A stretch of 34,844 nt of DNA from a virus (Duplodnaviria > Heunggongvirae > Uroviricota > Caudoviricetes): positions 1 through 34,844 of the IMG/VR virus record IMGVR_UViG_2579778601_000008; one strand, given 5' to 3'. The notes below the pieces were generated by a model, which did not search any database, was not told where the DNA came from, and saw only the letters and a program-made list of their open reading frames with translations. Positions within the stretch are counted from its first letter, which is position 1, and each line of letters begins with the position of its first letter. The position numbers were made by a program, and so were the translations under genes. This document shows positions 1 to 33,941 of this stretch, piece by piece.

Positions 1-1011
1 TTATAACGTCACTCCGCCTTTTAGTGGATTCAGAGCGACGGCATTTTGCAGATAGTCAGGCGCAAGGTGCGCATAGGCCATCGTCTGCTGAATGCTCGCA
101 TGTCCCAGAATCTGTTGCAGTGCGATTATATTGCCCCCGTTCATCATGAAATGGCTTGCGAATGTATGCCGCAGGATGTGGGTTGCCTGATTGGGTGGTA
201 TATCAGGTTTCACTCTGCGTAAAATCCCGCAAAATTTCTCATAATCAACTTTGAATAATTTGGCGCTGGCCTCCTCTTTAACTTTTTTCTCCAGTTCCTC
301 AGAAATCGGCACGGTTCGCTTTTTACCGTTTTTGGTTTTCAGGAAGGTAACCCTGCAATTTGTAATCTGTGCTGGTTTTAGCGTGGCAACTTCCGTCCAT
401 CTTCCTCCAGTGCTCAGACATAAAAGCGCGACAAGTAAGTCATCACCAGCCAAAACATTTAACAGTTTTTCGATTTCTGCTTTTTCCAGGAACGTCATTT
501 CAGGGTTGGCCTCCGCCAGTGGCGGCAGTCCGTGAATTGGGTGTTGCCCGGAAAATTCATCCAATTGAATTAATTTTGTGAACATGCCGGATAATCTGTA
601 CATGTCACGGTTTATCGTTGCGGCACTGATACCATCACGTAGTCGCATGGAACGATAATCCATCAAAGCCCTTTTGCTCATCCTGCTCACTGGTATATCA
701 CCTATGCCGCTGATGGTTTTGAGTAGATGATTAAACTCTTTTGTTCCATGCTCGTGGTTTTGCCCGTGATATTTCCACCAGATGTCCAGCAACTCACTCA
801 AAGTCCGGCGGTCTGCTCGCTGGCCTCCCCATTCTTTCTGACTGGCATTGGCGATTGTGTATCGCTCAAATGCTAGTGCTTCAGCTTTTCTTTCGAATTT
901 CCTGCGGATGCGTTTTCCGTCGCGACCGCGAGGTCTAATGTCCACTTCATAGCGACCATCATCGAGCTTCTTAATTGCCATAAGAAAGCCCTCCGGCGCT
1001 GTATTCACCAT
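1..1011 (-). CDS. int: Phage integrase, tyrosine recombinase (P2 Int-like)
   Basis: 336-aa ORF; C-terminal catalytic region ...HILRHTFASHFMMNGGNIIALQQILGHASIQQTMAYAHL... typical of tyrosine recombinases; sits beside the C repressor as in P2. Stop codon is at window positions 1-3, so the gene is complete. Confidence 0.92.
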   Translation of the reverse strand: MVNTAPEGFLMAIKKLDDGRYEVDIRPRGRDGKRIRRKFERKAEALAFERYTIANASQKEWGGQRADRRTLSELLDIWWKYHGQNHEHGTKEFNHLLKTISGIGDIPVSRMSKRALMDYRSMRLRDGISAATINRDMYRLSGMFTKLIQLDEFSGQHPIHGLPPLAEANPEMTFLEKAEIEKLLNVLAGDDLLVALLCLSTGGRWTEVATLKPAQITNCRVTFLKTKNGKKRTVPISEELEKKVKEEASAKLFKVDYEKFCGILRRVKPDIPPNQATHILRHTFASHFMMNGGNIIALQQILGHASIQQTMAYAHLAPDYLQNAVALNPLKGGVTL

Positions 1012-5775: not shown

Positions 5776-5992
5776 GTAAAAATACAGCGTGATTTTATAT
5801 GTCTTTGAATGGATTATGCGAAGCACCTCTAAGGTAGATGAGGAGCAATAGCGTGTTGAATCAGAAGGCTAAATTGTATTGAATCGTTAGCATGTAATTG
5901 AAGGCAGCTATTTGATTCGAGTCATAAAAGAGCATCTATTTCGGTTAATAAAACCATTGCGAGTGACTTTATGTCGAAGCATAATTCATCTC

Positions 5993-6006
5993 GAGCGAAG
6001 TCTTGC
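5993..6006. repeat. 14-bp direct repeat GAGCGAAGTCTTGC, copy 1 (preceded by GAGTGACT at 5961)
   Basis: Exact 14-mer recurs at 6257-6270; both copies are preceded by GAGTGACT. Confidence 0.8.
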
Positions 6007-6035
6007 TAGTCTTTCATCGGATTGATGACGGGCGC

Positions 6036-6067
6036 AAAAAAACCACCCTGGCAGGTGGTTTTTTTGT
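6036..6067. terminator. Bidirectional intrinsic terminator
   Basis: GC-rich hairpin (AACCACC..GGTGGTT) flanked by A7 upstream and T7 downstream; lies downstream of gene A (+) and of the small minus-strand ORF. Confidence 0.7.
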
Positions 6068-6077
6068 TTGAAGCATA

Positions 6078-6191
6078 CTAAAGAAAAATACTTACATGGA
6101 TATTACTGACGTTTACTGACAAACCACTCGGACTACCATATGGATAGCCAAAGAGGGCCAGAACGAGAATGCAGTAATAGCACTTCTTCAT
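6078..6191 (-). CDS. Candidate small hydrophobic peptide (37 aa), possible type-I-toxin-like or small membrane protein
   Basis: My own translation, not in the supplied ORF track (below its length cutoff): MKKCYYCILVLALFGYPYGSPSGLSVNVSNIHVSIFL. AGGAGG lies 4 nt upstream of the ATG; the stop codon is directly followed by the intrinsic terminator. Confidence 0.35.
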   Translation of the reverse strand: MKKCYYCILVLALFGYPYGSPSGLSVNVSNIHVSIFL

Positions 6192-6256
6192 ATCGCCTCC
6201 TGTAAGCAGAGGGCAATTTCCGCCGATATATGCGCTTCTAAGGCGGAGTGACTATT

Positions 6257-6270
6257 GAGCGAAGTCTTGC
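6257..6270. repeat. 14-bp direct repeat GAGCGAAGTCTTGC, copy 2 (preceded by GAGTGACT at 6246)
   Basis: Exact match to 5993-6006; the two copies bracket the terminator and the 37-codon ORF. Confidence 0.8.
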
Positions 6271-6912
6271 CCTGAAATAATGCTCTGTTTAAACGCAAAG
6301 TGATCTGGCATATCACCGAACAGAGGACCTGAACAACACAACATATAGTATGTCGTTGTTTCTGGTTGCATTTTATGTTGTGTAATACTGGTTTTGCATC
6401 AAGGATGTTTGAGCTTTTTTTGATATAGCTCAAAGTAAAAAGCAGAGACTACGGATGATAAGGTCTTGAAAGCAATGTAAATTTTTTAAAGTTGTGAGTG
6501 GCTAGAAATGCACAGTTTCAATATGGCGGATTTAAACAAGTAATTAAAAATAGCGACATAAATTCCAATAAAATCATTAAGTTGCGTTTTCTGTGGAAAC
6601 TTCGGTGACTCTGAAATTTTCTTTTAGTGTCGCTGAGGTTTAACAACGCGCTGCGCAAGTAGTTAGTGTTTTTTTAACTCAATATTCTGATTTATAAGGT
6701 TTTTTATAAATCGTGGACTGGTTGCGCGTATTCATCTCGTGTTATCAGCAAAGATAAGCTCTATATGCAGAACGGAATGCATATATGATGTCGAAAATGT
6801 TATGGGAAAACGTGGATTAGTGTTATAGTAATGGCTGAAAAACAGCCTTGACATAAAATAACAACTGTGATATGGCTGTGCATACTTAACTTTTTTAACG
6901 TAGGAGGCAACC

Positions 6913-7398
6913 ATGAGCTATGCAGCTAAAAAACTGCTTGACCGCTATTGGGATCGCCGACTACCTGTCGATCCGTTTAAGCTTGCTAAAGCGTGGGGTG
7001 CTCGTGTTGAAGCACTTGAGGAATCGGCTTATAACAACGATGGGTTAAGCGGTCTGGCTGTCATCAAAAAGGGTGTCCATAGGATTTATTTTGATTCTAG
7101 TGAACATTCTAATCGTCAACGTTTTACTGTTGCACACGAGTTAGGTCATCATGTGCTGGGGCATACCCAGGACGGAGAGTACCATCGGGATAATGTCGGG
7201 AATTATTCAACAGGTGCTCGTGATTACCGTGAGGTTGAAGCAAACAAGTTTGCTGCTGAGTTGTTAATGCCTGAGTCTGCTATACGTCAATTGGTATCCA
7301 GAGAAGGTATTGATAGCACTTTGAGATTAGCAAGCATCTTTAATGTATCAGAAGCCGCTATGCATTGGCGCTTAAAGAGCTTAGGAATGGCTTATTAA
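6913..7398 (+). CDS. ImmA/IrrE-family (DUF955-like) zinc metallopeptidase, no attached HTH domain
   Basis: 161-aa ORF with HEXXH motif in ...FTVAHELGHHVLGH...; AGGAGG 6 nt upstream of the ATG; AT-rich upstream region with TTGACA at 6848. Confidence 0.75.
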   Translation: MSYAAKKLLDRYWDRRLPVDPFKLAKAWGARVEALEESAYNNDGLSGLAVIKKGVHRIYFDSSEHSNRQRFTVAHELGHHVLGHTQDGEYHRDNVGNYSTGARDYREVEANKFAAELLMPESAIRQLVSREGIDSTLRLASIFNVSEAAMHWRLKSLGMAY

Positions 7399-7425
7399 TT
7401 AGCCTTTAACTTTTAACCTGTTTAA

Positions 7426-7462
7426 AATCACCTTTACGTTTGTACATGTAAGGGTGATTTTT
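7426..7462 (+). terminator. Hairpin plus T-tract between the peptidase and membrane-protein genes (possible attenuator or partial terminator)
   Basis: Inverted repeat AAATCACCTTT...AAGGGTGATTT followed by TTTTTT running into the ATG at 7465. Confidence 0.4.
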
Positions 7463-7464
7463 TT

Positions 7465-8064
7465 ATGGCTGATATTGATTTATCTGGACAGTCCCCAGAG
7501 CAAGGAACCACTCCTAAGGGCGATTCAGATCCTGATATCCTTATAAGGCGAGATAGACGGGATGGTATAGAGCGTAGAAGTATGCGATTAGTGCTCTCTG
7601 CCGTTGTGCTTTGTTTTGCTTGTACATTTCTATGGCAGGGGCTTAACTTTGCTTTGGCTGTTGGAAATGGCTTGCTGGAAGCGAAAAGCAGTATTGCCGC
7701 AGCGATAACACAAAAAGTAGATACACAAACTTGTGTTTCAGCAGAAAAATGTTCTGCTTTATCTTCGGATCCGAAGATGGCTGATGAGAGGATAACACCA
7801 TCTTCAGACACTAATAAAGTTAGAAAATCTATTTCTGGTTTATCCACCGATTGGTTATCGGCCAGTTCTCTAATAGCTATTGTTGCATTCATCCTTGGTG
7901 TGGGTTTAACTTTGCTTTTGACTCTTCTTAAATCAGCATTTCAACACCCGACAGATAAAGACTTTAGAACAAAGTCGACATCTAATACTATTGAGTTGGC
8001 CACGCCAATCAGTGAATTAATAATTGGTGTTCTGAATATAATTAAAGACAAACTATCTAAGTAA
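7465..8064 (+). CDS. Predicted two-TM membrane protein of unknown function
   Basis: 199-aa ORF; charged N-terminus (RRDRRDGIERR); hydrophobic segments LVLSAVVLCFACTFLWQGLNFALAV and SLIAIVAFILGVGLTLLLTLL; two Cys in the intervening loop; amphipathic C-terminus; co-oriented with the peptidase gene. Confidence 0.6.
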   Translation: MADIDLSGQSPEQGTTPKGDSDPDILIRRDRRDGIERRSMRLVLSAVVLCFACTFLWQGLNFALAVGNGLLEAKSSIAAAITQKVDTQTCVSAEKCSALSSDPKMADERITPSSDTNKVRKSISGLSTDWLSASSLIAIVAFILGVGLTLLLTLLKSAFQHPTDKDFRTKSTSNTIELATPISELIIGVLNIIKDKLSK

Positions 8065-8146
8065 AGCATTAGTTGTGATTTTTTATTGGTTTTAGTGATA
8101 ATACATCTCCAGTACTTATTGTTACTGGAGAGTATTTTTAGTCGTT

Positions 8147-9088
8147 TTATATTTTTAATGTTAGTGAATGATATTCACGAGAGTTCACGTTCGATGTGAT
8201 GTAATCGGGGGCGTTAACACCAAGAATCGCAACGAGTAATCGGCAAATTAAAGCCTGCATTTGTTGTAATATGTCATCTCCATATTGATAATTGTTAATA
8301 GTGGTAAAGCCAAGTGGTTGACCATGAAACATAGCTTCATGAAAGTTTTCATTGCGGATGTTTGTAATGTTTTTTTTGCCTGTAACCCATGATGGTCGTG
8401 GTATTCCATAAGTTTTGCAGATCCACTTCAAGCGCCTGGAGTGATTTAGAGTCTTTTCTGTACACTTGTTCTTTTCTGCCCATGTTAAAGCAAAGCAACT
8501 ATCCAGTGCCATATAAAGATACTGGAATTTTTCGAAGCTAAGGTATTGTGGGTTTTGGGATAAAAATAGTGCATGCACTATTGCTGCTATATTTATTGGT
8601 GCGTGTTTGGTTTTTGTCTCGCTAGACATGTATTTGAGTGCTAATTCTATAACCTCTTTTTCAGAGCACTTGACCAGAATAAAGTCAGTTAATTTGCTGG
8701 GTTTTATTGGGGTTGCGTCTAAAAAACCGGCATCAGTAGTTGTTAATCTTATCCCTTTGAAAAAAGACAGACACCACACAGCAAAATTGAGAGTTTCTAG
8801 TGAAGATGTATTTTTTAATTTTAGTGAGTGTGTTTTGGGTAAGCCAAATACTCGTTGGCTAAAAGGCATTGTGGATATGCCTCCATTGAGGTTATATACT
8901 TCTTGGTTTCCTGGGTATATCCAACCGTTAATAACATTTCTGTGATTGTTTATAAGATTTGTTTTTTCCGCTAGACCGGGTAAAGTAAGTAAAGAAAAAT
9001 CATCAGTTTCAACGTTAACTTCTACTGGATAGTATCCAAACTCAGCTTCAATATCATTGGATTGCTGTTCGTCAACTTTACCTTGCAT
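8147..9088 (-). CDS. Hypothetical 313-aa protein with RNxxxH motif (possible HEPN-type nuclease)
   Basis: Long ORF in a markedly AT-rich stretch, convergent with the two upstream genes; GGAG 6 nt upstream of ATG; motif RNENFH near residue 245; no P-loop or HEXXH seen. Confidence 0.65.
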   Translation of the reverse strand: MQGKVDEQQSNDIEAEFGYYPVEVNVETDDFSLLTLPGLAEKTNLINNHRNVINGWIYPGNQEVYNLNGGISTMPFSQRVFGLPKTHSLKLKNTSSLETLNFAVWCLSFFKGIRLTTTDAGFLDATPIKPSKLTDFILVKCSEKEVIELALKYMSSETKTKHAPINIAAIVHALFLSQNPQYLSFEKFQYLYMALDSCFALTWAEKNKCTEKTLNHSRRLKWICKTYGIPRPSWVTGKKNITNIRNENFHEAMFHGQPLGFTTINNYQYGDDILQQMQALICRLLVAILGVNAPDYITSNVNSREYHSLTLKI

Positions 9089-9326
9089 ACATTGCTCCGG
9101 TCAAAAATAGGCTCGATAATTCTCGTAAGCCTATCATGTTCGCAAAGTATCCATACCTGTGGATTTTGTAAATTTAAGTTGATTTGTCATTAAATAAGCC
9201 GTTGCATGCAACAAGTGAATGTTTTTGCATGCGTCGGGGATGTCCGTTCAGGCTGCGTGCGGTCAGGACTGGTGCGGATCCATAGTATCTATGCAACTGC
9301 ATTAAAACCGCCCCATGAAGCGGGCG

Positions 9327-9345
9327 GGCGAGGCGGGGAAAGCAC
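9327..9345. other. cos (cohesive end site) of P2-type phage
   Basis: GGCGAGGCGGGGAAAGCAC matches the 19-nt P2 cohesive end as I recall it; located just upstream of the portal gene Q. Confidence 0.7.
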
Positions 9346-9486
9346 TGCGCGCTGGCGGTGGTGCTGATTTTATTTTTTCAGCGTCTGAGCGCGTCGTGAT
9401 GGCGTTTAGATTGTTAGCCGGGGCGTTGGTGTGTCTGCGGGCTATTTTGTGCGGTGGTGAGCGTGTGAGGGCGTGATGGCGGGTTG

Positions 9487-9510
9487 TAAAAAAGCCGCCC
9501 GCAGGCGGCG
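9487..9510 (-). terminator. Intrinsic terminator downstream of Q (minus strand)
   Basis: Hairpin GCCGCC-CGCA-GGCGGC followed, on the minus strand, by a T6 run immediately after the Q stop. Confidence 0.6.
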
Positions 9511-9514
9511 ATAT

Positions 9515-24384: not shown

Positions 24385-24388
24385 ACAC

Positions 24389-24418
24389 AGGCGGGCTGAT
24401 TGCCCGCCTTTTCTTTAC
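24389..24418 (+). terminator. Intrinsic terminator after G
   Basis: Hairpin AGGCGGGC-TGAT-TGCCCGCCT followed by a T-rich tract. Confidence 0.65.
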
Positions 24419-24516
24419 CGGTGGTTGTGCTGTTGATTAGCCAACCGGGACAAATAGCCTGACATCTCCGGCACAACTGAAAATACCACTCACCCATTAA
24501 CCACGGAGTTAAACGG

Positions 24517-25707
24517 ATGAGTGATTATCATCACGGCGTGCAGGTGCTGGAGATTAACGACGGCACCCGCGTCATTTCCACCGTATCAACCGCCATTGTC
24601 GGCATGGTCTGCACAGCCAGCGATGCGGATGCGGAAACCTTCCCCCTCAATAAACCGGTGCTGATTACCAATGTGCAGAGCGCAATTGCAAAGGCCGGTA
24701 AAAAAGGCACGCTGGCGGCGTCGTTGCAGGCCATCGCTGACCAGTCCAAACCGGTCACCGTTGTCGTGCGTGTTGAAGACGGCACAGGCGACGACGAAGA
24801 AACGAAACTCGCGCAGACCGTTTCCAATATCATCGGCACCACCGACGAAAACGGTCAGTACACCGGACTGAAAGCCCTGATGGGGGCTGAGTCGGTTACC
24901 GGCGTTAAACCGCGCATTCTTGGTGTGCCGGGGCTGGACACCAAAGAGGTTGCCGTCGCACTGGCATCGGTATGCCAGGAACTGAATGCATTCGGGTATA
25001 TCAGCGCATGGGGCTGTAAAACCATTTCCGAGGTGAAAGCCTACCGCCAGAATTTCAGCCAGCGTGAGCTGATGGTTATCTGGCCGGATTTCCTCGCATG
25101 GGATACGGTCACCAGTACCACCGCCACCGCGTATGCCACCGCCCGTGCGCTGGGGCTGCGCGCTAAAATCGACCAGGAGCAGGGCTGGCATAAAACGCTG
25201 TCCAATGTCGGGGTAAACGGTGTTACCGGCATCAGTGCATCTGTATTCTGGGATTTGCAGAAGTCTGGCACTGATGCTGACCTGCTGAACGAGGCAGGCG
25301 TCACAACGCTGGTTCGCCGCGACGGTTTCCGTTTCTGGGGTAACCGTACCTGCTCCGATGACCCACTGTTCCTCTTTGAAAGCTACACACGCACTGCGCA
25401 GGTACTGGCCGACACGATGGCTGAGGCGCACATGTGGGCTATTGATAAGCCCATCACCGCAACGCTGATTCGCGACATCATTGACGGCATCAATGCCAAA
25501 TTCCGCGAACTGAAAAACAACGGTTATATCGTGGATGGCACATGCTGGTTCAGTGAAGAATCCAACGATGCGGAAACCCTCAAGGCCGGAAAACTGTATA
25601 TCGACTACGACTATACCCCGGTGCCTCCCCTCGAAAACCTGACCCTGCGCCAGCGTATTACTTCAAGATACCTGGCAAGTCTGGTCACCTCGGTTAACAG
25701 CAATTAA
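24517..25707 (+). CDS. FI: Contractile tail sheath protein
   Basis: 396-aa ORF at the P2 FI position. Confidence 0.92.
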   Translation: MSDYHHGVQVLEINDGTRVISTVSTAIVGMVCTASDADAETFPLNKPVLITNVQSAIAKAGKKGTLAASLQAIADQSKPVTVVVRVEDGTGDDEETKLAQTVSNIIGTTDENGQYTGLKALMGAESVTGVKPRILGVPGLDTKEVAVALASVCQELNAFGYISAWGCKTISEVKAYRQNFSQRELMVIWPDFLAWDTVTSTTATAYATARALGLRAKIDQEQGWHKTLSNVGVNGVTGISASVFWDLQKSGTDADLLNEAGVTTLVRRDGFRFWGNRTCSDDPLFLFESYTRTAQVLADTMAEAHMWAIDKPITATLIRDIIDGINAKFRELKNNGYIVDGTCWFSEESNDAETLKAGKLYIDYDYTPVPPLENLTLRQRITSRYLASLVTSVNSN

Positions 25708-25719
25708 GGAGCCTGACCG

Positions 25720-26238
25720 ATGGCAATGCCGCGCAAACTCAAGTTAATGAACGTCTTTCTGAACGGCTACAGCTATCAGGGCGTTGCAAAGTCCGTCACG
25801 CTGCCAAAACTGACCCGTAAGCTCGAAAACTATCGCGGTGCGGGGATGAACGGCAGCGCACCGGTAGACCTCGGCCTTGATGACGATGCGCTGTCAATGG
25901 AGTGGTCGCTCGGTGGCTTCCCGGATTCGGTTATCTGGGAGCTTTACGCCGCAACCGGCGTGGATGCCGTGCCGATTCGTTTTGCAGGCTCTTACCAGCG
26001 TGACGATACCGGCGAAACGGTGGCCGTCGAAGTGGTCATGCGTGGCCGTCAGAAAGAAATCGACACCGGCGAGGGGAAACAGGGAGAAGACACCGAGTCG
26101 AAAATCTCCGTGGTCTGCACCTATTTCCGGCTGACGATGGACGGTAAGGAGCTGGTCGAAATTGACACCATCAACATGATTGAGAAGGTGAACGGCGTCG
26201 ACCGGCTGGAGCAACACCGCCGCAATATCGGCCTGTGA
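25720..26238 (+). CDS. FII: Tail tube protein
   Basis: 172-aa ORF at the P2 FII position. Confidence 0.9.
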   Translation: MAMPRKLKLMNVFLNGYSYQGVAKSVTLPKLTRKLENYRGAGMNGSAPVDLGLDDDALSMEWSLGGFPDSVIWELYAATGVDAVPIRFAGSYQRDDTGETVAVEVVMRGRQKEIDTGEGKQGEDTESKISVVCTYFRLTMDGKELVEIDTINMIEKVNGVDRLEQHRRNIGL

Positions 26239-26294
26239 TTTTCATCCGGTCAGCCTGGCTGACCGGTTAACCCTGATTCAGAAGTGAGAAAACC

Positions 26295-26570
26295 ATGAAC
26301 AAAGAAAATGTGATTACCCTGGACAATCCGGTCAAGCGTGGTGAGCAGGTTATCAAACAGGTCACGCTGATGAAACCTAATGCCGGGACGCTTCGCGGTG
26401 TCAGTCTGGCTTCGGTCGCACACTCCGAAGTCGATGCACTTATTAAGGTGCTGCCGCGCATGACGGCACCGATGCTGACCGAGCAGGAAGTCGCCGCGCT
26501 GGAACTGCCTGACCTTGTGGAACTGGCCGGTAAGGTGGTCGGTTTTTTGTCGCCGAACTCGGTGCAGTGA
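26295..26570 (+). CDS. E: Tail assembly chaperone E
   Basis: 91-aa ORF upstream of T; contains the T6G slippery site near its 3' end. Confidence 0.85.
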   Translation: MNKENVITLDNPVKRGEQVIKQVTLMKPNAGTLRGVSLASVAHSEVDALIKVLPRMTAPMLTEQEVAALELPDLVELAGKVVGFLSPNSVQ

Positions 26571-26722
26571 CGTTTCCGAAAAATCTGTCGGTAGATGACC
26601 TGATGGCGGATGTGGCAGTGATATTTCACTGGCCGCCATCAGAACTGTATCCCATGAGCCTGACCGAACTCATCACATGGCGCGAAAAGGCGCTCCAGCG
26701 AAGCGGAAACACGAATGAGTAA
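26295..26722 (+). CDS. Tail assembly chaperone E+E' made by programmed -1 frameshift
   Basis: Slippery sequence GGTTTTTTG at 26541-26549; I traced the -1 frame by hand from there to a TAA at 26720-26722, encoding ...HWPPSELYPMSLTELITWREKALQRSGNTNE. Confidence 0.7.
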
Positions 26723-26797
26723 CAATGTAAAATTACAGGTATTGCTCAGGGCTGTTGACCAGGCATCCCGCCCGTTTAAATCCATCCGCACAGCGAG
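26715..26797 (+). pseudogene. T: Tape measure protein T, N-terminal fragment (cut by IS insertion)
   Basis: ATG at 26715 encodes MSNNVKLQVLLRAVDQASRPFKSIRTAS, then the frame runs into the IS terminal repeat. Confidence 0.8.
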
Positions 26798-26882
26798 TGC
26801 GTATTACCGTGAAGGAGATCGGTGAGTAACATCGATGGAGATCGGTTCGTGTCACTTTCACAGAACCGTTTTTAAATTACCT

Positions 26883-27632
26883 TCACTGATCTCCTTCGGT
26901 CAACGGAGATTGTATTTTCCGCATTGATTCTCCTTTAAGTTCGATCTTGATACTGCCATGAACCAGTCGATCTAGGATGGCATCCGCATGTGTGGAGTCT
27001 CCGATCATTTTGTACCAGTTTTCCACCGGCAACTGGCTCACTACGATGATTGAGCCTCGTTGGTACATCAGATCCACTATTTCCAGCAGGTCGCTACGCT
27101 GTTCTGATGAGAGAGGTTCCAGCCCCCAGTCATCCAGAAGCAGCAGATCGCTATTATTCAGCCTGGTCAAAAGTTTGCTGTATCTTCCATCAGCATGCCC
27201 CTGATAGCACTGTTCCATCAGCGCTTTAAGGCGATAATAGTAGACCTTGTATCCCTGTCGGCAGGCATTATGACCAAGTGCACATGCCAGGAACGTTTTA
27301 CCGCTGCCGGTGGCCCCGGTCAGTAAAATATTTTGTTTCAGGGTTAACCAGTTTCCCTGACTGAGTGAACGGATGAGGGCCCTGTCCAGCCCTCTATTGT
27401 TACGATAATCCAGCTTTGATAACTCAGCATTAAGTCTGAACCGTGCATGTTTGATCAGACGCTCTGCCTTCCTGTTTTCACGGCAGGTTAGTTCTTCTGC
27501 TGTCAGTAATGACAGGCGTTCTTCGAAGCCCAGCTCCTGGTATGTGCCCGGTTGAGCAAGTTGCTTTTTAAGCGCATCACGGAAGCCGGTGAGTTTAAGT
27601 GCGGTCAGTTGTTCGTAAAGATGATTCATCAT
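26883..27632 (-). CDS. istB: IS21-family helper ATPase IstB
   Basis: 249-aa ORF with Walker A (GATGSGKT) and Walker B (LLLLDDWG) motifs, typical of IstB. Confidence 0.9.
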   Translation of the reverse strand: MMNHLYEQLTALKLTGFRDALKKQLAQPGTYQELGFEERLSLLTAEELTCRENRKAERLIKHARFRLNAELSKLDYRNNRGLDRALIRSLSQGNWLTLKQNILLTGATGSGKTFLACALGHNACRQGYKVYYYRLKALMEQCYQGHADGRYSKLLTRLNNSDLLLLDDWGLEPLSSEQRSDLLEIVDLMYQRGSIIVVSQLPVENWYKMIGDSTHADAILDRLVHGSIKIELKGESMRKIQSPLTEGDQ

Positions 27633-27643
27633 TGGATCCCGTA

Positions 27644-29185
27644 TCAGTGGTAATACTCACTGCCGCGTACGTTTTCGTGTTCCATCGTGGATAACAGATC
27701 TGGTTTTGGATCCTGAACAGGTTGTTTATCCAGACCTTTTTCCAGGATCGATTTAATACCTGACAGACGCCATACCTTTGTTTTCAGAGCTCTTGCACAT
27801 GCTGCATTAAGTCTGGCTTTACTGTATTTTTTATGAAGGTTCAGGAGTCCAAGGCAGAAGCGATAGCTTTGTTCCGGATGTGGACGAGAGTTCAGTATAT
27901 GAAGCACATAACTATGAGTTTCACTGCCTATGTGCCCCGCCCATTCCAGAAGACGCTCTGGCGTCCAGGTGGCATGCTGTCGATGAGCTTCAGGCATGTG
28001 CTCGTTGCGGGTACTGTAGCCATAAGTACGCTTGCGCGGGTGCACAGCAACCTCCTGCCCCTGATTGAAGAGTCTTACCAGTTCTCCGGAGATCCATGCT
28101 TCCAGTTGCTGGCCTAACAGCGAACATGGAACCGAGTAGTAATGTTTGTCGATTTCCACGTGGTAATCGGCATGAACTCTGACTTTCTTCACCAGGGTGT
28201 AACTGTAACTGGCTTCAGGAAGAGGCTTCAGTGCGGGTTTATCAAGCTGGATGAAGAGTTCTGCACGTGAATAACCCAACTTCTGCATTATTTTGTTATT
28301 CAGTCTTTCCAGCAACTCCCGAATGCGCTGATTAAGCGATGCAAGGCTGTAGAAGATCTCATGCCTGATTCGGGCCATGATCCAGCGTTCAACAACCTGA
28401 ACGCCAACTTCAGCTTTGGCTTTATCTTTCGGTTTACGTGGCCGCGCAGGCAAAACTGCGACATTATAATGCTCAAGCATCTGCTGGTAGGTAGGGTTAA
28501 CGTCAGGATCATACTTACATGCCCTGGATGTGGCGCTTTTCAGATTGTCCGGAACAACAAGTTCAGGAACGCCACCCAACCACTGGAAGCAGCGAACATG
28601 ACTCATCACCCAGTCTTCAAGCTGCTGAGACCAGGTGGCCTCTGCCCATGTGTAACTTGATGCCCCGAGAACAGCTACGATGACCTGAGCAGTTCTTATT
28701 TCTCCGGTCTCAGGGTCGGTAACGCCAACGGTAGGTCCACAGTAATCAACGAAAAGTTTTTCGCCAGCTTTATGTACCTGACGCATTGATGGTGAAGTGG
28801 TTTTGAGCCATTCACGGTACATCCGGCAGTAATGGTTATAGCTGTAAAAACCGCCTGGATTACGCTCACAGTATTCTTCCCAGAGTAGCTGCAGCGTCAC
28901 GCATTTATTACGCAGTTCCCGGTGTACTGTAGCCCAGTCAGGCAGAGAGTGCTTCTTCATCTTAACCTGGGTCTGAAGGAACGCATGTTTTAGTTTTGTA
29001 TCATCCCATCCTGTAGGTAAGGGCCACTGCTTTATGCCAAGTTGAGCCGCCCGATTAGCATATCTGGATACAACGGAAGGGGAGATTGCAAGACTACGAC
29101 CAATTTGTCGATGGCTGAGTCCAACACCGTATTTAAGCCTAAGAATTTCTTTAAGTTTTCTCATAGAAATTGGAACTGTTGGCAT
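27644..29185 (-). CDS. istA: IS21-family transposase IstA
   Basis: 513-aa ORF with an N-terminal HTH and DDE-type integrase core, immediately upstream of istB. Confidence 0.9.
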   Translation of the reverse strand: MPTVPISMRKLKEILRLKYGVGLSHRQIGRSLAISPSVVSRYANRAAQLGIKQWPLPTGWDDTKLKHAFLQTQVKMKKHSLPDWATVHRELRNKCVTLQLLWEEYCERNPGGFYSYNHYCRMYREWLKTTSPSMRQVHKAGEKLFVDYCGPTVGVTDPETGEIRTAQVIVAVLGASSYTWAEATWSQQLEDWVMSHVRCFQWLGGVPELVVPDNLKSATSRACKYDPDVNPTYQQMLEHYNVAVLPARPRKPKDKAKAEVGVQVVERWIMARIRHEIFYSLASLNQRIRELLERLNNKIMQKLGYSRAELFIQLDKPALKPLPEASYSYTLVKKVRVHADYHVEIDKHYYSVPCSLLGQQLEAWISGELVRLFNQGQEVAVHPRKRTYGYSTRNEHMPEAHRQHATWTPERLLEWAGHIGSETHSYVLHILNSRPHPEQSYRFCLGLLNLHKKYSKARLNAACARALKTKVWRLSGIKSILEKGLDKQPVQDPKPDLLSTMEHENVRGSEYYH

Positions 29186-29378
29186 AGGTATCCTTTACCG
29201 GAATGGCAAAAGATACAGATCAACACACCTGTGAAGTTCCAATAACATTGATGGAGATCACTGAATAACAAAATGAGTCAAAAGTGATCTCCATCGATGT
29301 TATTCAGCGATCTGTTCAAATGTTATTACCCGATCTCGATGGAAGTTATTGAGTGATCTCCTTTCATGAAAATACGCA

Positions 29379-31748
29379 GCGAGTAAGTCGCTGTCGGGGG
29401 ATATCCGGGAAACACAAAAATCACTGCGCGAGCTGAATGGTCACGCATCCCGTATTGAGGGATTTCGCAAGACTAGCGCACAGCTTGCCGTGACTGGTCA
29501 TGCACTTGAAAAGGCACGGCAGGAAGCCGAAGCCCTTGCCACACAGTTTAAAAACACCGAACGTCCGACCCGTGCTCAGGCGAAAGTGCTGGAATCCGCA
29601 AAGCGTGCGGCGGAGGACTTACAGGCGAAATATAACCGCCTGACGGATTCCGTTAAACGCCAGCAGCGGGAACTGGCCGTTGTGGGAATTAATACCCGCA
29701 ATCTTGCACATGATGAGCAGGGACTGAAAAACCGTATCAGTGAAACCACCGCACAGCTTAACCGTCAGCGCGACGCGCTGGCGCGTGTCAGTGCGCAACA
29801 GGCAAAACTTAACGCAGTAAAACAGCGTTATCAGGCCGGAAAGGAACTGGCCGGAAATATGGCCTCAGTGGGCGCTGCCGGTGTGGGGATTGCTGCTGCG
29901 GGAACGATGGCCGGAGTTAAGCTGCTGATGCCCGGTTATGAGTTTGCGCAGAAAAACTCAGCATTGCAGGCCGTGCTCGGAGTGGCAAAAGACTCCGCCG
30001 AAATGACCGCACTCCGCAAACAGGCGCGCCAGCTCGGCGACAATACCGCAGCCTCGGCGGATGATGCAGCCGGTGCACAGATTATCATTGCGAAAGCCGG
30101 TGGGGATGCTGCGGCTATTCAGGCGGCAACGCCGGTCACACTGAATATGGCACTGGCAAACCAGCGGTCGATGGAAGAAAACGCGCAACTGTTGCTGGGG
30201 ACTAAGGCATCCTTTCAACTGTCAAATGATGATGTCAGCCATGTGGGCGACGTGTTGTCGGCAACGATGAATAAGTCGGCGGCTGATTTTCAGGGACTCA
30301 GTGATGCACTGACTTACCTCGGTCCGGTTGCGAGGACGGCAGGTGTAAGTCTTGAACAGGCAGCGGCCATGACAGGTGTGCTGCATGACAATAACATCAG
30401 GGGGTCAATGGCGGGTACGGGTGGCAGTGCCGTTGTCACCCGATTACAGGCACCGACTGGAAAAGCATGGGATGCACTCAAAGAGCTTGGCGTTAAAACC
30501 TCGGACAAAAAGGGAAATATGCGTCCGTTGTTCACCATTCTGAAAGAGATTCAGGCCAGCTTTGATAAACACAAGCTGGGAACGTCTCAGAAGGGGGAAT
30601 ACCTTAAAACCATTTTTGGTGAGGAAGCCCTGAAATCAGCGAACGTTTTACTGGCAGCGGCAGCAAGCGGAAAACTGGATAAGCTGACCGCCACGCTGAA
30701 AGCCTCGGACGGTAAAACGGAAGAGCTGGTTAAAATCATGCAGGATAACCTCGGTGGTGACTTTAAGGAGTTTCAGTCCGCTTATGAGGCGGTGGGGACT
30801 GACCTGTTTGACCAGCAGGAAGGCACACTGCGTAAGCTCACGCAGACGGCCACAAAGTATGTGTTAAAACTCGACGGCTGGATCCAGAAAAACAAATCAC
30901 TGGCGTCAACCATCGGCATCATTGCCGGTGGCGCGCTGGCGCTGATTGGCATCATCGGTGCAATTGGTCTTGTAGCCTGGCCGGTTATCACCGGCATCAA
31001 TGCCATCATCGCGGCAGCAGGCGCAATGGGGGCAATCTTCACGACGGTTGGCAGTGCTGTTATGACCGCCATCGGGGCTATTAGCTGGCCGGTTGTGGCC
31101 GTGGTGGCTGCCATTGTCGCCGGGGCGTTGCTTATCCGTAAATACTGGGAGCCTGTCAGCGCATTCTTTGGCGGTGTGGTTGAAGGGCTGAAAGCGGCAT
31201 TTGCGCCGGTGGGGGAACTGTTCACGCCACTGAAGCCGGTGTTTGACTGGCTGGGCGAAAAGTTACAGGCCGCGTGGCAGTGGTTTAAAAACCTGATTGC
31301 CCCGGTCAAAGCCACCCAGGACACCCTGAACCGTTGCCGTGACACGGGCGTCATGTTCGGGCAGGCACTGGCTGACGCGTTGATGCTGCCGCTTAATGCG
31401 TTCAACAAACTGCGCAGTGGTATTGACTGGGTACTGGAAAAACTCGGTGTTATCAACAAAGAGTCAGACACACTTGACCAGACCGCCGCCAGAACTCATG
31501 CCGCCACGTATGGTACCGGTGACTATATTCCGGCGACCAGCTCTTATGCAGGCTATCAGGCTTATCAGCCGGTCACGGCACCGGCTGGCCGCTCTTATGT
31601 AGACCAGAGTAAAAACGAATATCACATCAGCCTGACGGGTGGTACTGCGCCGGGGACACAGCTTGACCGCCAGTTACAGGACGCGCTCGAAAAATACGAG
31701 CGGGATAAACGTGCGCGCGCCCGTGCCAGCATGATGCATGACGGTTAA
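29379..31748 (+). pseudogene. T: Tape measure protein T, C-terminal portion (frame open from the IS junction)
   Basis: The frame resumes right after the IS (...KSLSGDIRETQKSLRELNGHASRIEGFRKTSAQLAVTGHALEKARQ...) and continues ~790 codons with the hydrophobic segments typical of tape measure proteins. Confidence 0.85.
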
Positions 31749-31762
31749 GGAGGTGACGAAAA

Positions 31763-32242
31763 ATGATGCTCGCGTTAGGTATGTTTGTTTTTATGCGCCA
31801 GACGCTGCCACACCAGACCATGCAGCGTGAATCAGATTATCGCTGGCCGTCAAATTCCCGTATCGGTAAACGGGATGCCTACCAGTTTCTCGGTGTGGGT
31901 GAGGAAAACATGACGCTTGCCGGTGTGCTTTATCCCGAACTGACCGGCGGAAAGCTGACGATGACCACGCTCAGGCTGATGGCAGATGAAGGCCGGGCGT
32001 GGCCGTTGCTGGATGGCACCGGCATGATTTACGGCATGTATGTCATCAGCAAGGTGAGTGAAACAGGGAGTATTTTCTTTGCAGACGGCACACCCCGGAA
32101 AATTGATTTTACGCTGTCGCTCACCCGCGTTGATGAATCACTGGCCGCGCTTTATGGCGATATCGGTAAACAGGCGGAGTCGCTCATCGGTAAGGCCGGC
32201 AGTATGGCGACCAGATTCACGGGTATGACGGGGGCAGGATAA
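31763..32242 (+). CDS. U: Tail protein U
   Basis: 159-aa ORF at the P2 gpU position. Confidence 0.88.
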   Translation: MMLALGMFVFMRQTLPHQTMQRESDYRWPSNSRIGKRDAYQFLGVGEENMTLAGVLYPELTGGKLTMTTLRLMADEGRAWPLLDGTGMIYGMYVISKVSETGSIFFADGTPRKIDFTLSLTRVDESLAALYGDIGKQAESLIGKAGSMATRFTGMTGAG

Positions 32243-33405
32243 TGCTGGATGCGCTGACATTTGATGCAGGCAGTACGCTGACGCCGGATTACATGCTGAT
32301 GCTCGACAGCAGGGATATTACCGGCAATATCAGCGACCGTCTGATGAGTATGACCCTGACGGATAGCCGGGGCTTTGAGGCTGACCAGCTTGATATTGAA
32401 CTGAACGATGCCGACGGGCAGGTCGGGCTGCCGGTTCGTGGCGCTGTCCTGACGGTGTATATCGGCTGGAAAGGTTTTGCCCTGGTATGCAAAGGGAAAT
32501 TCACCGTTGATGAGGTTGAACACCGGGGCGCACCGGATGTGGTCACCATCCGCGCCCGGAGTGCAGATTTTCGCGGGACGCTCAATTCCCGCCGTGAAGG
32601 CTCCTGGCATGACACCACGCTCGGTGCGATTGTTGAGGCGATAGCCTCCCGTAACAGGCTGGAAGCCAGTGTCGCGCCGTCACTGGCAGGAATTAAAATC
32701 CCGCACATCGACCAGTCGCAGGAGTCTGATGCGAAATTCCTGACCCGTCTTGCAGAACGCAACGGCGGTGAGGTCTCGGTAAAAATGGGAAAACTGTTGT
32801 TTCTCAAAGCGGGGCAGGGGGTGACGGCCAGCGGTAAAAAAATCCCGCAGGTCACCATCACCCGCAGCGACGGTGACCGTCATCATTTTGCGATTGCTGA
32901 CCGTGGAGCCTATACCGGCGTAACGGCAAAGTGGCTTCACACCAAAGACCCGAAGCCACAAAAGCAGAAGGTAAAACTGAAACGCAAAAAGAAAGAAAAA
33001 CACCTGCGCGCACTGGAACACCCGAAAGCGAAACCAGTCACGCAGAAGAAAGCGCCAAAAGTACCGGAAGCGCGCGAAGGTGAATACATGGCAGGTGAGG
33101 CTGACAACGTTTTTGCCCTGACCACGGTATATGCCACGAAAGCGCAGGCCATGCGCGCCGCTCAGGCGAAGTGGGATAAGCTGCAACGGGGCGTTGCGGA
33201 GTTCTCCATCAGTCTGGCTACTGGTCGGGCAGATATTTACACGGAAACGCCGGTCAAAGTATCAGGCTTTAAGCGCGTCATAGACGAGCAGGACTGGACA
33301 ATCACTAAGGTGACACATTTTCTGAATAATAGCGGCTTCACGACGTCCTTGGAGCTTGAGGTCAGGCTTTCTGATGTGGAGTACGAAACAGAAGATGATG
33401 AGTGA
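32242..33405 (+). CDS. D: Tail protein D (late control D)
   Basis: 387-aa ORF at the P2 gpD position; contains a Lys/Pro-rich low-complexity segment. Confidence 0.9.
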   Translation: MLDALTFDAGSTLTPDYMLMLDSRDITGNISDRLMSMTLTDSRGFEADQLDIELNDADGQVGLPVRGAVLTVYIGWKGFALVCKGKFTVDEVEHRGAPDVVTIRARSADFRGTLNSRREGSWHDTTLGAIVEAIASRNRLEASVAPSLAGIKIPHIDQSQESDAKFLTRLAERNGGEVSVKMGKLLFLKAGQGVTASGKKIPQVTITRSDGDRHHFAIADRGAYTGVTAKWLHTKDPKPQKQKVKLKRKKKEKHLRALEHPKAKPVTQKKAPKVPEAREGEYMAGEADNVFALTTVYATKAQAMRAAQAKWDKLQRGVAEFSISLATGRADIYTETPVKVSGFKRVIDEQDWTITKVTHFLNNSGFTTSLELEVRLSDVEYETEDDE

Positions 33406-33767: not shown

Positions 33768-33834
33768 AGTGCTTGATATAAATCCATTTATATCATCAGG
33801 TTAGGTGCTTTTTTGTGACACCATCCCTGTCTTC

Positions 33835-33860
33835 CCCCACATGATGTGGGGGTTTTTTTT
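33835..33860 (+). terminator. Intrinsic terminator-like hairpin near the prophage/host junction
   Basis: CCCCCACATGATGTGGGGG followed by T8; may belong to the host upstream gene or overlap the att core. Confidence 0.5.
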
Positions 33861-33941
33861 ATCCTCAATTTGCCTGCTGCTTAATGCATTGCAGATGATT
33901 TGCTTCCGTTATACTACCGTCAGTTGATAGCGGGAGTATTT

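What the first reader, a model, noticed from the sequence alone, without database searches (positions are those of the whole stretch)
26715..31748. Tape measure gene T is split by an IS21-family element; prophage is likely tail-defective
The T reading frame starts at 26715, is interrupted after 28 codons by a ~2.58 kb element encoding IstA and IstB, and resumes in frame at the far junction. The element has terminal inverted repeats (TGCGTATT...AATACGCA) and a 5-bp flanking direct repeat GCGAG, indicating a genuine transposition event. Loss of an intact tape measure should abolish tail assembly, so the prophage is probably cryptic while its cargo genes persist.
Basis: seen in the sequence. Interest (0 to 1): 0.55.

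Follow-up and report, generated by a model that had tools for sequence, protein, structure and literature searches.

The report
ISEc12 insertion splitting P2 tape-measure gene
A common E. coli jumping gene (ISEc12) has very recently landed in the tail-length gene of an otherwise intact P2-type prophage, almost certainly stopping it from building tails; this is a real but ordinary event of a kind seen in about a hundred other sequenced E. coli genomes.

Summary
A 2,581-bp ISEc12 (IS21 family; istA and istB on the minus strand) lies at 26798-29378. It is flanked by a 5-bp duplication, GCGAG, and splits the P2-type tape-measure gene T after 28 codons. Removing the IS plus one repeat copy restores an 815-codon ORF that is 98-99% identical over its full length to gpT of P2 and Wphi. 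The empty site exists at 100% identity in other E. coli genomes. Strain S14 carries the same prophage without the IS (4 substitutions, no indels), so the IS is the only structural lesion and is very recent. The occupied site occurs in one of 5,426 complete genomes (strain 21964). That chromosome has no second copy of this T, and there PGAP calls the 3' fragment an intact CDS. Tail deficiency is a strong inference, not shown: T is a null allele, there is no credible restart site, and polarity on U and D is likely. "Cryptic" overstates it, because everything else is intact. An apparent cluster of ISEc12 insertions at the 5' end of T did not exceed chance (p=0.18). ISEc12 lies in or next to P2-type tail blocks in roughly 110 genomes, in both orientations. 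Known element, known kind of event, low interest.

The parts
26295..26722 (+). Tail assembly chaperone genes E (26295-26570) and the E' extension (26567-26722), with the T6G slippery site at 26545-26551. Untouched by the IS. E' overlaps the T start by 8 nt.
   Evidence: ORF list; sequence; phrog_103 tail protein; PGAP names 'phage tail assembly protein' and 'GpE family' in L001.
26715..26797 (+). 5' fragment of tape-measure gene T (27 codons plus 2 nt). As it now stands it reads on into the IS and gives a 36-aa peptide that stops at the TGA at 26823-26825.
   Evidence: Translation.
26793..26797 (.). [quoted passage not shown]
   Evidence: A single copy is present in the empty site of S14 and five other genomes.
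26798..29378 (-). ISEc12 (IS21 family), 2,581 bp, with its genes antisense to T.
   Evidence: 100% identical to copies that PGAP labels 'IS21-like element ISEc12 family'; complete copies (>=80% of the query) in 1,366 of 5,426 complete E. coli genomes.
26798..26900 (.). istB-proximal terminal inverted repeat, with the TG end and three copies of the GGAGATC-containing subterminal repeat (26814, 26837, 26888 on the minus strand).
26883..27632 (-). istB, the AAA+ helper ATPase (249 aa; PGAP uses the adjacent ATG at 27629).
   Evidence: PF01695, E=2e-67; NF038214, 270 bits against a cut-off of 200.
27644..29185 (-). istA, the DDE transposase (513 aa).
   Evidence: rve and Mu-transpos_C_2 domains; NF033546, 310 bits against a cut-off of 160.
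29240..29378 (.). istA-proximal terminal inverted repeat, with the CA end and four or five subterminal repeats (GGAGATC at 29253, 29286 on the minus strand and 29355 on the minus strand; a variant GAGATCG at 29331 on the minus strand).
29379..29383 (.). [quoted passage not shown]
29384..31748 (+). 3' fragment of T (codons 29-815 plus stop). It has no start codon of its own. The first canonical start in frame is the GTG at 29490. PGAP in strain 21964 calls a 785-aa CDS from the CTG at 29391.
   Evidence: TIGR01760 and PF10145 tape-measure domains. 100% identical to T of strain S14.
31763..33405 (+). Downstream tail genes U (31763-32242, tube initiator) and D (32242-33405, baseplate hub). Both are intact but lie distal to the IS in the same operon, so they are probably subject to polarity.
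   Evidence: ORFs; phrog_76 and phrog_52 tail proteins. Roles from bioRxiv 10.64898/2026.09.14.750843. Polarity is inferred.
33817..33863 (.). 47-bp att core repeat (the attR side). Its partner lies just downstream of cpxP, outside the window.
   Evidence: Direct repeat found between the window and the left flank of strain 21964. Prophage lies between cpxP and fieF.

Best explanation
A transposition-competent copy of ISEc12 (IS21 family) inserted into codon 28 of T, the tape-measure gene of a P2-type (Peduovirus) prophage integrated between cpxP and fieF. By analogy with IS21/IS5376, the IstA DDE transposase, assembled on the multi-repeat ends and delivered to target DNA bent by the IstB AAA+ helper, makes cuts staggered by 5 bp; repair of those cuts produced the GCGAG duplication. 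The event is very recent and confined to one lineage. Its consequence is a null allele of T: a 36-residue peptide is made from the native start, and the remaining 787 codons have no start codon or ribosome-binding site. The 2.6 kb of untranslated antisense IS sequence probably also lowers transcription of the downstream tail genes U and D. All other phage genes and the att core are intact. The prophage should therefore still be able to maintain lysogeny, express its cargo, and probably excise, replicate, package DNA and lyse the cell, but it should release tail-less, non-infectious heads. Shown here: the structure, the identity of the IS, the precision and recency of the insertion, and the absence of a second T. 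Inferred: the tail defect, the polarity, and the residual functions.
For: Boundaries, duplication, frame and rebuilt 815-aa ORF. IstA (rve, Mu-transpos_C_2; NF033546 at 310 bits against a cut-off of 160) and IstB (PF01695; NF038214 at 270 bits against 200). Subterminal GGAGATC repeats occur only at the IS ends (6 of 7 occurrences in the 34.8-kb window). The IS is 100% identical to many ISEc12 copies. ISEc12 with a 5-bp duplication was reported in tssM of ST131: PMC10711316. The empty site is 100% identical in six genomes. The S14 prophage is identical apart from the IS and 4 substitutions, with an intact 815-aa T. The rebuilt T is 98-99% identical over 815 aa to gpT of P2 and Wphi. Strain 21964 has a single copy of this T. 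No promoter-like site on the + strand within the IS, and no Shine-Dalgarno-like sequence before any candidate restart codon. Mechanism of IS21-family transposition and its 5-bp repeats: PMC11208146 and PMC10122671. gpT is the tape measure in the tube lumen, gpU the tube initiator and gpD the hub: bioRxiv 10.64898/2026.09.14.750843.
Against: No phenotype data exist, so tail deficiency is inferred from the known role of tape-measure proteins and P2 genetics (my own knowledge, partly supported). Low-level translation of an N-terminally truncated T from a non-canonical start cannot be excluded by sequence alone. The consensus promoter scan is crude and could miss an outward promoter. The window's host genome was not available: the window differs from strain 21964 by 3 substitutions, so a helper P2-type prophage elsewhere in the actual host is excluded only for strain 21964. 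It is not shown that the IS-free sibling prophage in S14 is itself viable.
Confidence: 0.9

Rival explanations
1. T remains functional. Translation restarts just downstream of the IS (for example at the CTG at 29391, which PGAP uses for a 785-aa CDS, or the GTG at 29490), giving an N-terminally truncated tape measure that still supports tail assembly, perhaps with slightly shorter tails.
For: PGAP annotates the 3' fragment as an ordinary 'phage tail tape measure protein' CDS in strain 21964, and does the same in two other prophages with 5'-proximal insertions. Only 28 of 815 residues are lost. The tape-measure domains lie downstream.
Against: No candidate start has a Shine-Dalgarno-like sequence (best 3-4 of 6 matches; U, by contrast, has AAGGAGG). 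Translational coupling to E' is lost. No promoter-like site faces T within the IS. Transcription must cross 2.6 kb of untranslated antisense DNA. The PGAP call is an ORF-finding convenience, not evidence.
Confidence: 0.04
2. The 5' end of T (or the E'/T junction) is a specific hotspot for ISEc12, so the insertion reflects targeted integration rather than a near-random hit.
For: Five independent insertions lie within 322 bp, each with its own 5-bp duplication: S51 at T-206, Z1323CEC0018 at T-20 (opposite orientation), the strain 447 group at T+35, the window at T+83, and 23AR0885 at T+116. A post hoc conditional test gives p=0.019.
Against: Fifteen independent same-orientation insertions were mapped across the 6.3-kb FI-D block. 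A scan statistic for three events within 81 nt gives p=0.18, and for four within 322 nt gives p=0.32. T receives 7 of 15 events against 39% expected from its length (p=0.35). None of about 12 independent P2-type insertions in IMG/VR lies at the 5' end of T. No target consensus was found. Both orientations are common (41 and 70 genomes). The literature reports no strong target sequence specificity for IS21 (PMC11208146).
Confidence: 0.08
3. The split is an assembly artefact: an IS copy was wrongly placed inside T when repeats were collapsed or resolved.
For: IS elements are a classic source of misassembly, and only one other record shares this junction.
Against: Both junctions are clean, with a perfect 5-bp duplication of exactly the length ISEc12 makes elsewhere. 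A misjoin would not create a duplication. The same structure is present in the complete chromosome of strain 21964, which differs from the window by 3 substitutions and so appears not to be the identical sequence record.
Confidence: 0.02
4. The prophage was already non-functional before the IS arrived, so the insertion had no phenotypic effect.
For: P2-type prophages are not SOS-inducible (my own knowledge) and many are silent. Viability of the S14 sibling has not been shown.
Against: Every expected P2 gene from int to ogr is present as an open frame, and PGAP flags no pseudogene across the prophage in 21964 or S14. The att core is intact. The four substitutions relative to S14 are one intergenic, one in a protein with the same accession in both strains, and two amino-acid changes.
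Confidence: 0.1

Closest known systems
ISEc12 (IS21 family), as described interrupting tssM in E. coli ST131 clade C/H30 (PMC10711316)
   Same: The same element. It is 100% identical in nucleotide sequence to copies that PGAP labels as the ISEc12 family, including a copy lying over an ImcF-related (TssM) gene in strain S13 (H29). Same 5-bp duplication length. Same outcome: one structural gene of a contractile machine is split.
   Different: The target is a prophage tail gene rather than the T6SS. This insertion is confined to one strain (1 of 5,426 genomes), whereas the tssM insertion is fixed in a global clade.
IS21 / IS5376, the biochemically and structurally characterised family prototypes (PMC11208146, PMC10122671)
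   Same: istA-istB gene pair; IstA with DDE (rve) and C-terminal beta-barrel domains; IstB AAA+ helper; TG...CA ends with multiple subterminal repeats; 5-bp duplication; no strong target sequence preference.
   Different: IstA here is 513 aa, which I recall as longer than in the prototypes. More repeats on the istA side (four or five, against three). No biochemistry exists for ISEc12 itself, so the mechanism is transferred by homology.
Gene T (gpT, tape-measure protein) of bacteriophage P2, Wphi and other Peduovirus phages
   Same: The rebuilt protein has the same length (815 aa) and is 98-99% identical. It sits in the same position: after FI, FII and E/E+E', and before U, D and ogr.
   Different: Here the gene is split after codon 28 by 2,586 extra bases.
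Other ISEc12-disrupted P2-type prophages in sequenced E. coli (for example APEC O1 sheath gene, ST131 strain 751 gene D, FDAARGOS_1286 gene T)
   Same: Same IS, same prophage family, same 5-bp duplications, same inactivation of a tail gene.
   Different: Each is at a different position. Mid-gene insertions are flagged as pseudogenes by PGAP, whereas 5'-proximal ones like this one are not.

Membership tests
IS21 family insertion sequence | Two consecutive genes on one strand: istA (transposase) followed closely by istB (helper). | tested here: met
   istA 29185-27644 and istB 27632-26883 are both on the minus strand, with an 11-nt gap.
IS21 family insertion sequence | IstA is a DDE (rve-type) transposase with a C-terminal beta-barrel domain and scores above the family cut-off. 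| tested here: met
   PF00665 rve (E=3e-10) and PF22483 Mu-transpos_C_2 (E=3e-16). NF033546 'IS21 family transposase', 310.5 bits against a cut-off of 160. The N-terminal HTH domains were not scored separately.
IS21 family insertion sequence | IstB is an AAA+ ATPase of the IstB/DnaC type. | tested here: met
   PF01695 IstB_IS21, E=2e-67. NF038214, 270 bits against a cut-off of 200.
IS21 family insertion sequence | Imperfect terminal inverted repeats ending 5'-TG...CA-3', built from multiple repeated transposase-binding sequences. | tested here: met
   TGCGTATT...AATACGCA. The 53-nt arms are 72% complementary, and there are several internal repeats. GGAGATC occurs 6 times within about 130 nt of the ends and nowhere outside the IS in 34.8 kb.
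IS21 family insertion sequence | Short target-site duplication (5 bp in many members). | tested here: met
   GCGAG on both sides. 5 bp at all 16 other mapped ISEc12 sites in complete genomes. 5-7 bp among IMG/VR copies.
IS21 family insertion sequence | Demonstrated mobility: the same element at different sites, and an empty site elsewhere. | tested here: met
   Empty site at 100% identity. Identical element at many different sites.
ISEc12 specifically | Sequence identity to the ISfinder reference entry for ISEc12. | not testable with these tools
   ISfinder is not available here. Indirect support: 100% identity to copies that PGAP names as the ISEc12 family, including one lying over the ImcF-related (TssM) gene of strain S13; tssM is the site that PMC10711316 attributes to ISEc12 in ST131.
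P2-family tape-measure gene T | Tape-measure domain, and full-length similarity to gpT. | tested here: met
   PF10145, E=6e-44. TIGR01760, 332 bits. 98-99% identity over 815 aa to P2, Wphi and Peduovirus T.
P2-family tape-measure gene T | Position immediately after the frameshifted chaperone genes E/E+E' and before U and D. | tested here: met
   ORF order. PGAP annotation of the same prophage in 21964 and S14.
P2-family tape-measure gene T | A single uninterrupted reading frame (needed for function). | tested here: not met
   In the T frame, a stop follows 36 codons, and 52 stops lie across the IS. This is a disrupted member of the family.

The most novel reading that the evidence does not exclude
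P2-type prophage tail modules may be a preferred sink for ISEc12 beyond what relaxed selection on prophage DNA explains. About 110 of the ~1,600 complete E. coli genomes with this T type have an ISEc12 in or within a few kb of the FI-D block, and 14 of 37 ISEc12 ends in IMG/VR viral contigs lie in P2-type prophages. If real, this could reflect structure-based target choice by IstB, or selection for lysogens whose P2 prophage can no longer make particles but keeps its defence cargo.
Probability: 0.15. Interest if true: 0.35.

Novelty: already known. Interest (0 to 1): 0.13.

Why it matters
Biologically this is a routine example of IS-mediated prophage inactivation: a known IS in a known gene of the best-studied temperate myovirus family. 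It has three modest uses. (1) The pair strain 21964 / strain S14 is a near-isogenic natural pair. The prophages differ by the IS and four substitutions, which would allow a clean test of what loss of T does to a resident P2-type prophage and its host. (2) It exposes an annotation blind spot. Insertions near the 5' end of a gene leave a long ORF that PGAP calls an intact CDS, so methods that rely on such annotation would probably score this prophage as intact. (3) The survey shows that ISEc12 repeatedly disables P2-type tail genes in E. coli, which is relevant to estimates of how many 'intact' P2-like prophages (and helpers for P4-like satellites) are really functional.

Tried and rejected
(1) Hotspot at the 5' end of T. 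I found three, then five, independent ISEc12 insertions within 322 bp. I then built a denominator by querying with the whole FI-D block plus the IS and mapped 15 independent same-orientation events. The cluster is not significant (p=0.18 and 0.32), and T is not over-hit for its length (p=0.35). Rejected.

(2) Orientation bias. The mirror-image survey gave 70 genomes against 41, and IMG/VR gave 4 against 5 in the late genes. No bias.

(3) Target consensus around the duplication. None was visible in nine unique 5-bp sites.

(4) Outward promoter or restart site that could rescue T'. No + strand promoter-like site, and no Shine-Dalgarno sequence before any candidate start.

(5) Structured RNAs in the window. 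No Rfam match at gathering threshold.

(6) Second T gene. None in the window, and a single copy on the strain 21964 chromosome.

(7) Other lesions in the prophage. None: there are no indels relative to S14, and all ORFs are open.

(8) Function of the two unknown cargo proteins. No Pfam, NCBIfam, PADLOC or PDB-sequence match; only PHROG families of unknown function. I did not use the expensive homology or structure searches, because the answer does not bear on this finding.
Full report
**1. The observation**

The window is a P2-type prophage. Gene order runs int (1-1011, minus strand), C, cox, B, A, a low-GC cargo island, then Q and P, O N M L X Y K lysA lysB R S V W J I H G FI FII E/E' T U D ogr, followed by fieF.

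- T begins at the ATG at 26715.
- At 26798 the sequence switches to an element of 2,581 bp that ends at 29378.
- The pentamer GCGAG is present immediately before it (26793-26797) and immediately after it (29379-29383).
- The termini read TGCGTATT...AATACGCA: 8 of 8 complementary, and 13 of 16 when extended.
- The native T frame now gives 28 T residues plus 8 IS-encoded residues, then a stop at 26823-26825. In that frame 52 stop codons lie across the element.
- IS plus duplication is 2,586 nt, a multiple of three.
- Removing 26798-29383 yields an open frame of 2,448 nt (815 codons) ending at 31748.

**2. What the element is**

The two genes on the minus strand are:

- istA (29185-27644, 513 aa). 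It has rve and Mu-transposase C-terminal domains and scores 310 bits against NCBIfam NF033546 'IS21 family transposase' (cut-off 160).
- istB (27632-26883, 249 aa). It matches PF01695 at E=2e-67 and NF038214 at 270 bits (cut-off 200).

Both ends carry several copies of a repeat containing GGAGATC. The heptamer occurs seven times in the 34.8-kb window: six within about 130 nt of the element's ends, once inside it, and never in the phage DNA.

These are the features that define the IS21 family: an istA-istB pair, TG...CA ends built from multiple repeats, and 5-bp direct repeats in many members (PMC10122671, PMC11208146).

At the nucleotide level the element is 100% identical to copies that PGAP names 'IS21-like element ISEc12 family'. 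Complete copies (>=80% of the query) occur in 1,366 of 5,426 complete E. coli genomes. Among the 1,909 genomes with any match, the median is three places per genome, and several top matches are O25b:H4-ST131 strains. ISEc12 is the element reported to have split tssM in ST131 clade C, there too with a 5-bp duplication (PMC10711316). I could not compare it with the ISfinder reference.

**3. Proof of a precise, recent insertion**

- The in-silico empty site (200 nt on each side, one GCGAG) is 100% identical over its full length to six complete genomes. It is present at >=80% coverage in 1,543 genomes.
- The occupied left junction is found as a single 100% match in only one genome, strain 21964 (NZ_CM190142.1; human, Germany). 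The right junction gives the same result.
- The window matches that genome with 3 substitutions in 34,844 nt.
- Strain S14 (NZ_CP107114.1) carries the same prophage at the same chromosomal site, between cpxP and fieF, but without the IS. It shows 4 substitutions and no gaps over 26.8 kb to the left, and none over 5.5 kb to the right. Its T is annotated as an intact 815-aa protein.

The IS is therefore the only structural difference from an intact sibling. None of the four substitutions closes a reading frame. A 47-bp att core is present at 33817-33863, with its partner next to cpxP in strain 21964.

**4. What was hit**

The rebuilt protein carries the tape-measure domains (PF10145, TIGR01760). 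It is 98-99% identical over all 815 residues to the T gene product of P2, Wphi and other Peduovirus phages. In P2, gpT is the tape-measure protein that occupies the lumen of the tail tube. The two genes downstream, U and D, encode the tube initiator and the baseplate hub (bioRxiv 10.64898/2026.09.14.750843).

The window has one T, and the chromosome of strain 21964 has a single match to the T 3' fragment.

**5. Most likely consequence (inferred)**

- T is a null allele.
- No candidate restart codon downstream of the IS has a Shine-Dalgarno-like sequence, whereas U has AAGGAGG.
- No promoter-like site faces T inside the IS.
- Translational coupling to E' is lost.
- Transcription from the upstream late promoter would have to cross 2.6 kb of untranslated antisense DNA. 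Reduced expression of U and D is therefore likely, though I could not test this.
- E and E+E', including the T6G slippery site at 26545-26551, are untouched.

Because all other genes and the att core are intact, 'tail-defective' is the right term and 'cryptic' is too strong. The prophage should still maintain lysogeny and express its cargo. If it is derepressed, it would probably still kill the cell while releasing non-infectious heads.

**6. A lead that did not hold up**

The junction searches showed other P2-type prophages with ISEc12 close to the start of T:

| Strain | Position relative to the T start | Duplication | Orientation relative to the window |
|---|---|---|---|
| S51 | -206 (inside E) | ACTGC | same |
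| Z1323CEC0018 | -20 | GCGCT | opposite |
| 447 and three clonal isolates | +35 | CTCAG | same |
| window / 21964 | +83 | GCGAG | same |
| 23AR0885 | +116 | ACACA | same |

To obtain a denominator I queried with the whole FI-D block including the IS. The tool joins pieces on one strand regardless of their order, so any genome with a same-orientation ISEc12 in or near the block rises to 100% coverage. There were 41 such genomes.

I mapped all 15 independent events that lie inside the 6.3-kb block. Five are in FI (one of them in its last codons, just before FII), one in E, seven in T and two in D. All are at different positions, each with its own 5-bp duplication.

- A Monte Carlo scan statistic gives p=0.18 for three events within 81 nt, and p=0.32 for four within 322 nt.
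- T receives 7 of 15 events against 39% expected from its length (p=0.35).
- The mirror-image survey found 70 genomes with the opposite orientation.
- In IMG/VR, 14 of 37 ISEc12 ends lie in P2-type prophages. They are scattered from A to D in both orientations, with none at the 5' end of T.
- No target consensus is visible, which agrees with the reported lack of strong sequence specificity in IS21 (PMC11208146).

So there is no hotspot at this site. What the survey does show is that an ISEc12 in or beside the P2-type tail block is common: roughly 110 of the ~1,600 genomes that carry this T type. These counts are not corrected for shared ancestry.

**7. Comparison with the known, and verdict**

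This is a known IS (ISEc12) of a well-characterised family, inserted by the standard mechanism into a well-known gene of the P2 family. It is one instance of a familiar process, IS-mediated inactivation of prophages, and is already present in a public genome.

The only non-trivial points are practical:

- PGAP annotates the 3' fragment as an ordinary tape-measure CDS (785 aa from a CTG at window 29391). It does so here and in the two other 5'-proximal cases, whereas mid-gene insertions are flagged as pseudogenes. The disruption is therefore invisible in the annotation.
- Strains 21964 and S14 form a natural near-isogenic pair for testing the effect.

Novelty: already known. Interest: low.

Noticed in passing
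window 29391-31748; L001 22794-25151; L002 8827-11151; L003 8775-11153: PGAP annotates the 3' fragment of the IS-split T as an ordinary 'phage tail tape measure protein' CDS (785, 774 and 792 aa, from internal or non-canonical starts), with no pseudogene flag. This happens in all three prophages where ISEc12 sits within the first 116 nt of T. Mid-gene insertions in T, FI and D are flagged as partial pseudogenes. Methods that rely on such annotation would probably count these prophages as intact.
   Followed up: yes
window 24517-33405 and homologous blocks in L002, L003, L044-L056: ISEc12 lies in or within a few kb of the P2-type FI-D tail block in 41 complete E. coli genomes in the window's orientation and 70 in the opposite orientation. 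Fifteen independent same-orientation events inside the block were mapped, each with a different 5-bp duplication. The counts are not corrected for clonal relatedness.
   Followed up: yes
window 26508-26830 (empty-site coordinates): Five independent ISEc12 insertions fall within 322 bp around the E'/T junction in five different prophages. The cluster is not significant against the 15 mapped events (p=0.18 to 0.32).
   Followed up: yes
window 5776-9514: A low-GC (35-41%) cargo island lies between A and Q, the position where I recall P2 carrying tin/old. It contains an ImmA/IrrE-type metallopeptidase (6913-7398; CapP-like in PADLOC, E=1e-30), a 199-aa protein that by eye has two hydrophobic stretches suggesting membrane helices (7465-8064; phrog_8096, unknown function), and a 313-aa protein on the opposite strand (8147-9088; phrog_5937, unknown function). 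The last two have no Pfam, NCBIfam, PADLOC or PDB-sequence match. This may be an uncharacterised defence or exclusion module.
   Followed up: partly
window 5776-6912: About 1.1 kb downstream of gene A has no ORF longer than 81 aa, no gene annotated by PGAP in the two sibling genomes, and no Rfam match. Its content is unexplained.
   Followed up: partly
window 24385-24516; compare L002 2375-3631, L003 1243-3345, L044 1-278: The gap between G and FI is empty here (132 bp). Other ISEc12-hit P2-type prophages carry cargo at this position: a SIR2-family protein (23AR0885), an AAA ATPase plus a DUF4435 protein (strain 447), and a restriction endonuclease (S51). Rows also list a Shedu nuclease, a Ser/Thr kinase and a DUF5677 protein near the tail block in further strains.
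   Followed up: no
window 33817-33863, and L043 about 2265-2311: A 47-bp direct repeat (GACACCATCCCTGTCTTCCCCCACATGATGTGGGGGTTTTTTTTATC) flanks the prophage, which is integrated between cpxP and fieF. The repeat contains a stem-loop followed by a T-run, which looks like the cpxP terminator.
   Followed up: partly
L004, L007, L022, L023, L033, L041 (IMG/VR): Several IMG/VR copies of the same 2,581-bp ISEc12 are flanked by 6- or 7-bp duplications (one of 6 bp, five of 7 bp) rather than 5 bp. All 16 sites mapped in complete genomes have 5 bp. This is too frequent to be chance extension, which suggests a variable stagger or a sub-variant of the element.
   Followed up: no
L003 6153-8735: The ISEc12 copy in the strain 447 group is 2,583 bp, and its istA is annotated as frameshifted. 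It is an inactivated copy sitting in T.
   Followed up: no
L055 (ST131 strain 751) and L016 (IMG/VR 2663763326_000004): The same ISEc12 insertion in gene D (duplication AGCGG; empty-site coordinate 30226, which is window 32812) appears in a complete ST131 genome and in an IMG/VR contig. This is presumably the same lineage sampled twice.
   Followed up: no
L010 and L011 (IMG/VR), mapping to window about 12609 and 12635: Two independent ISEc12 insertions lie 26 bp apart in the same orientation in gene O of P2-type prophages. This is another small local cluster, of unknown significance.
   Followed up: no
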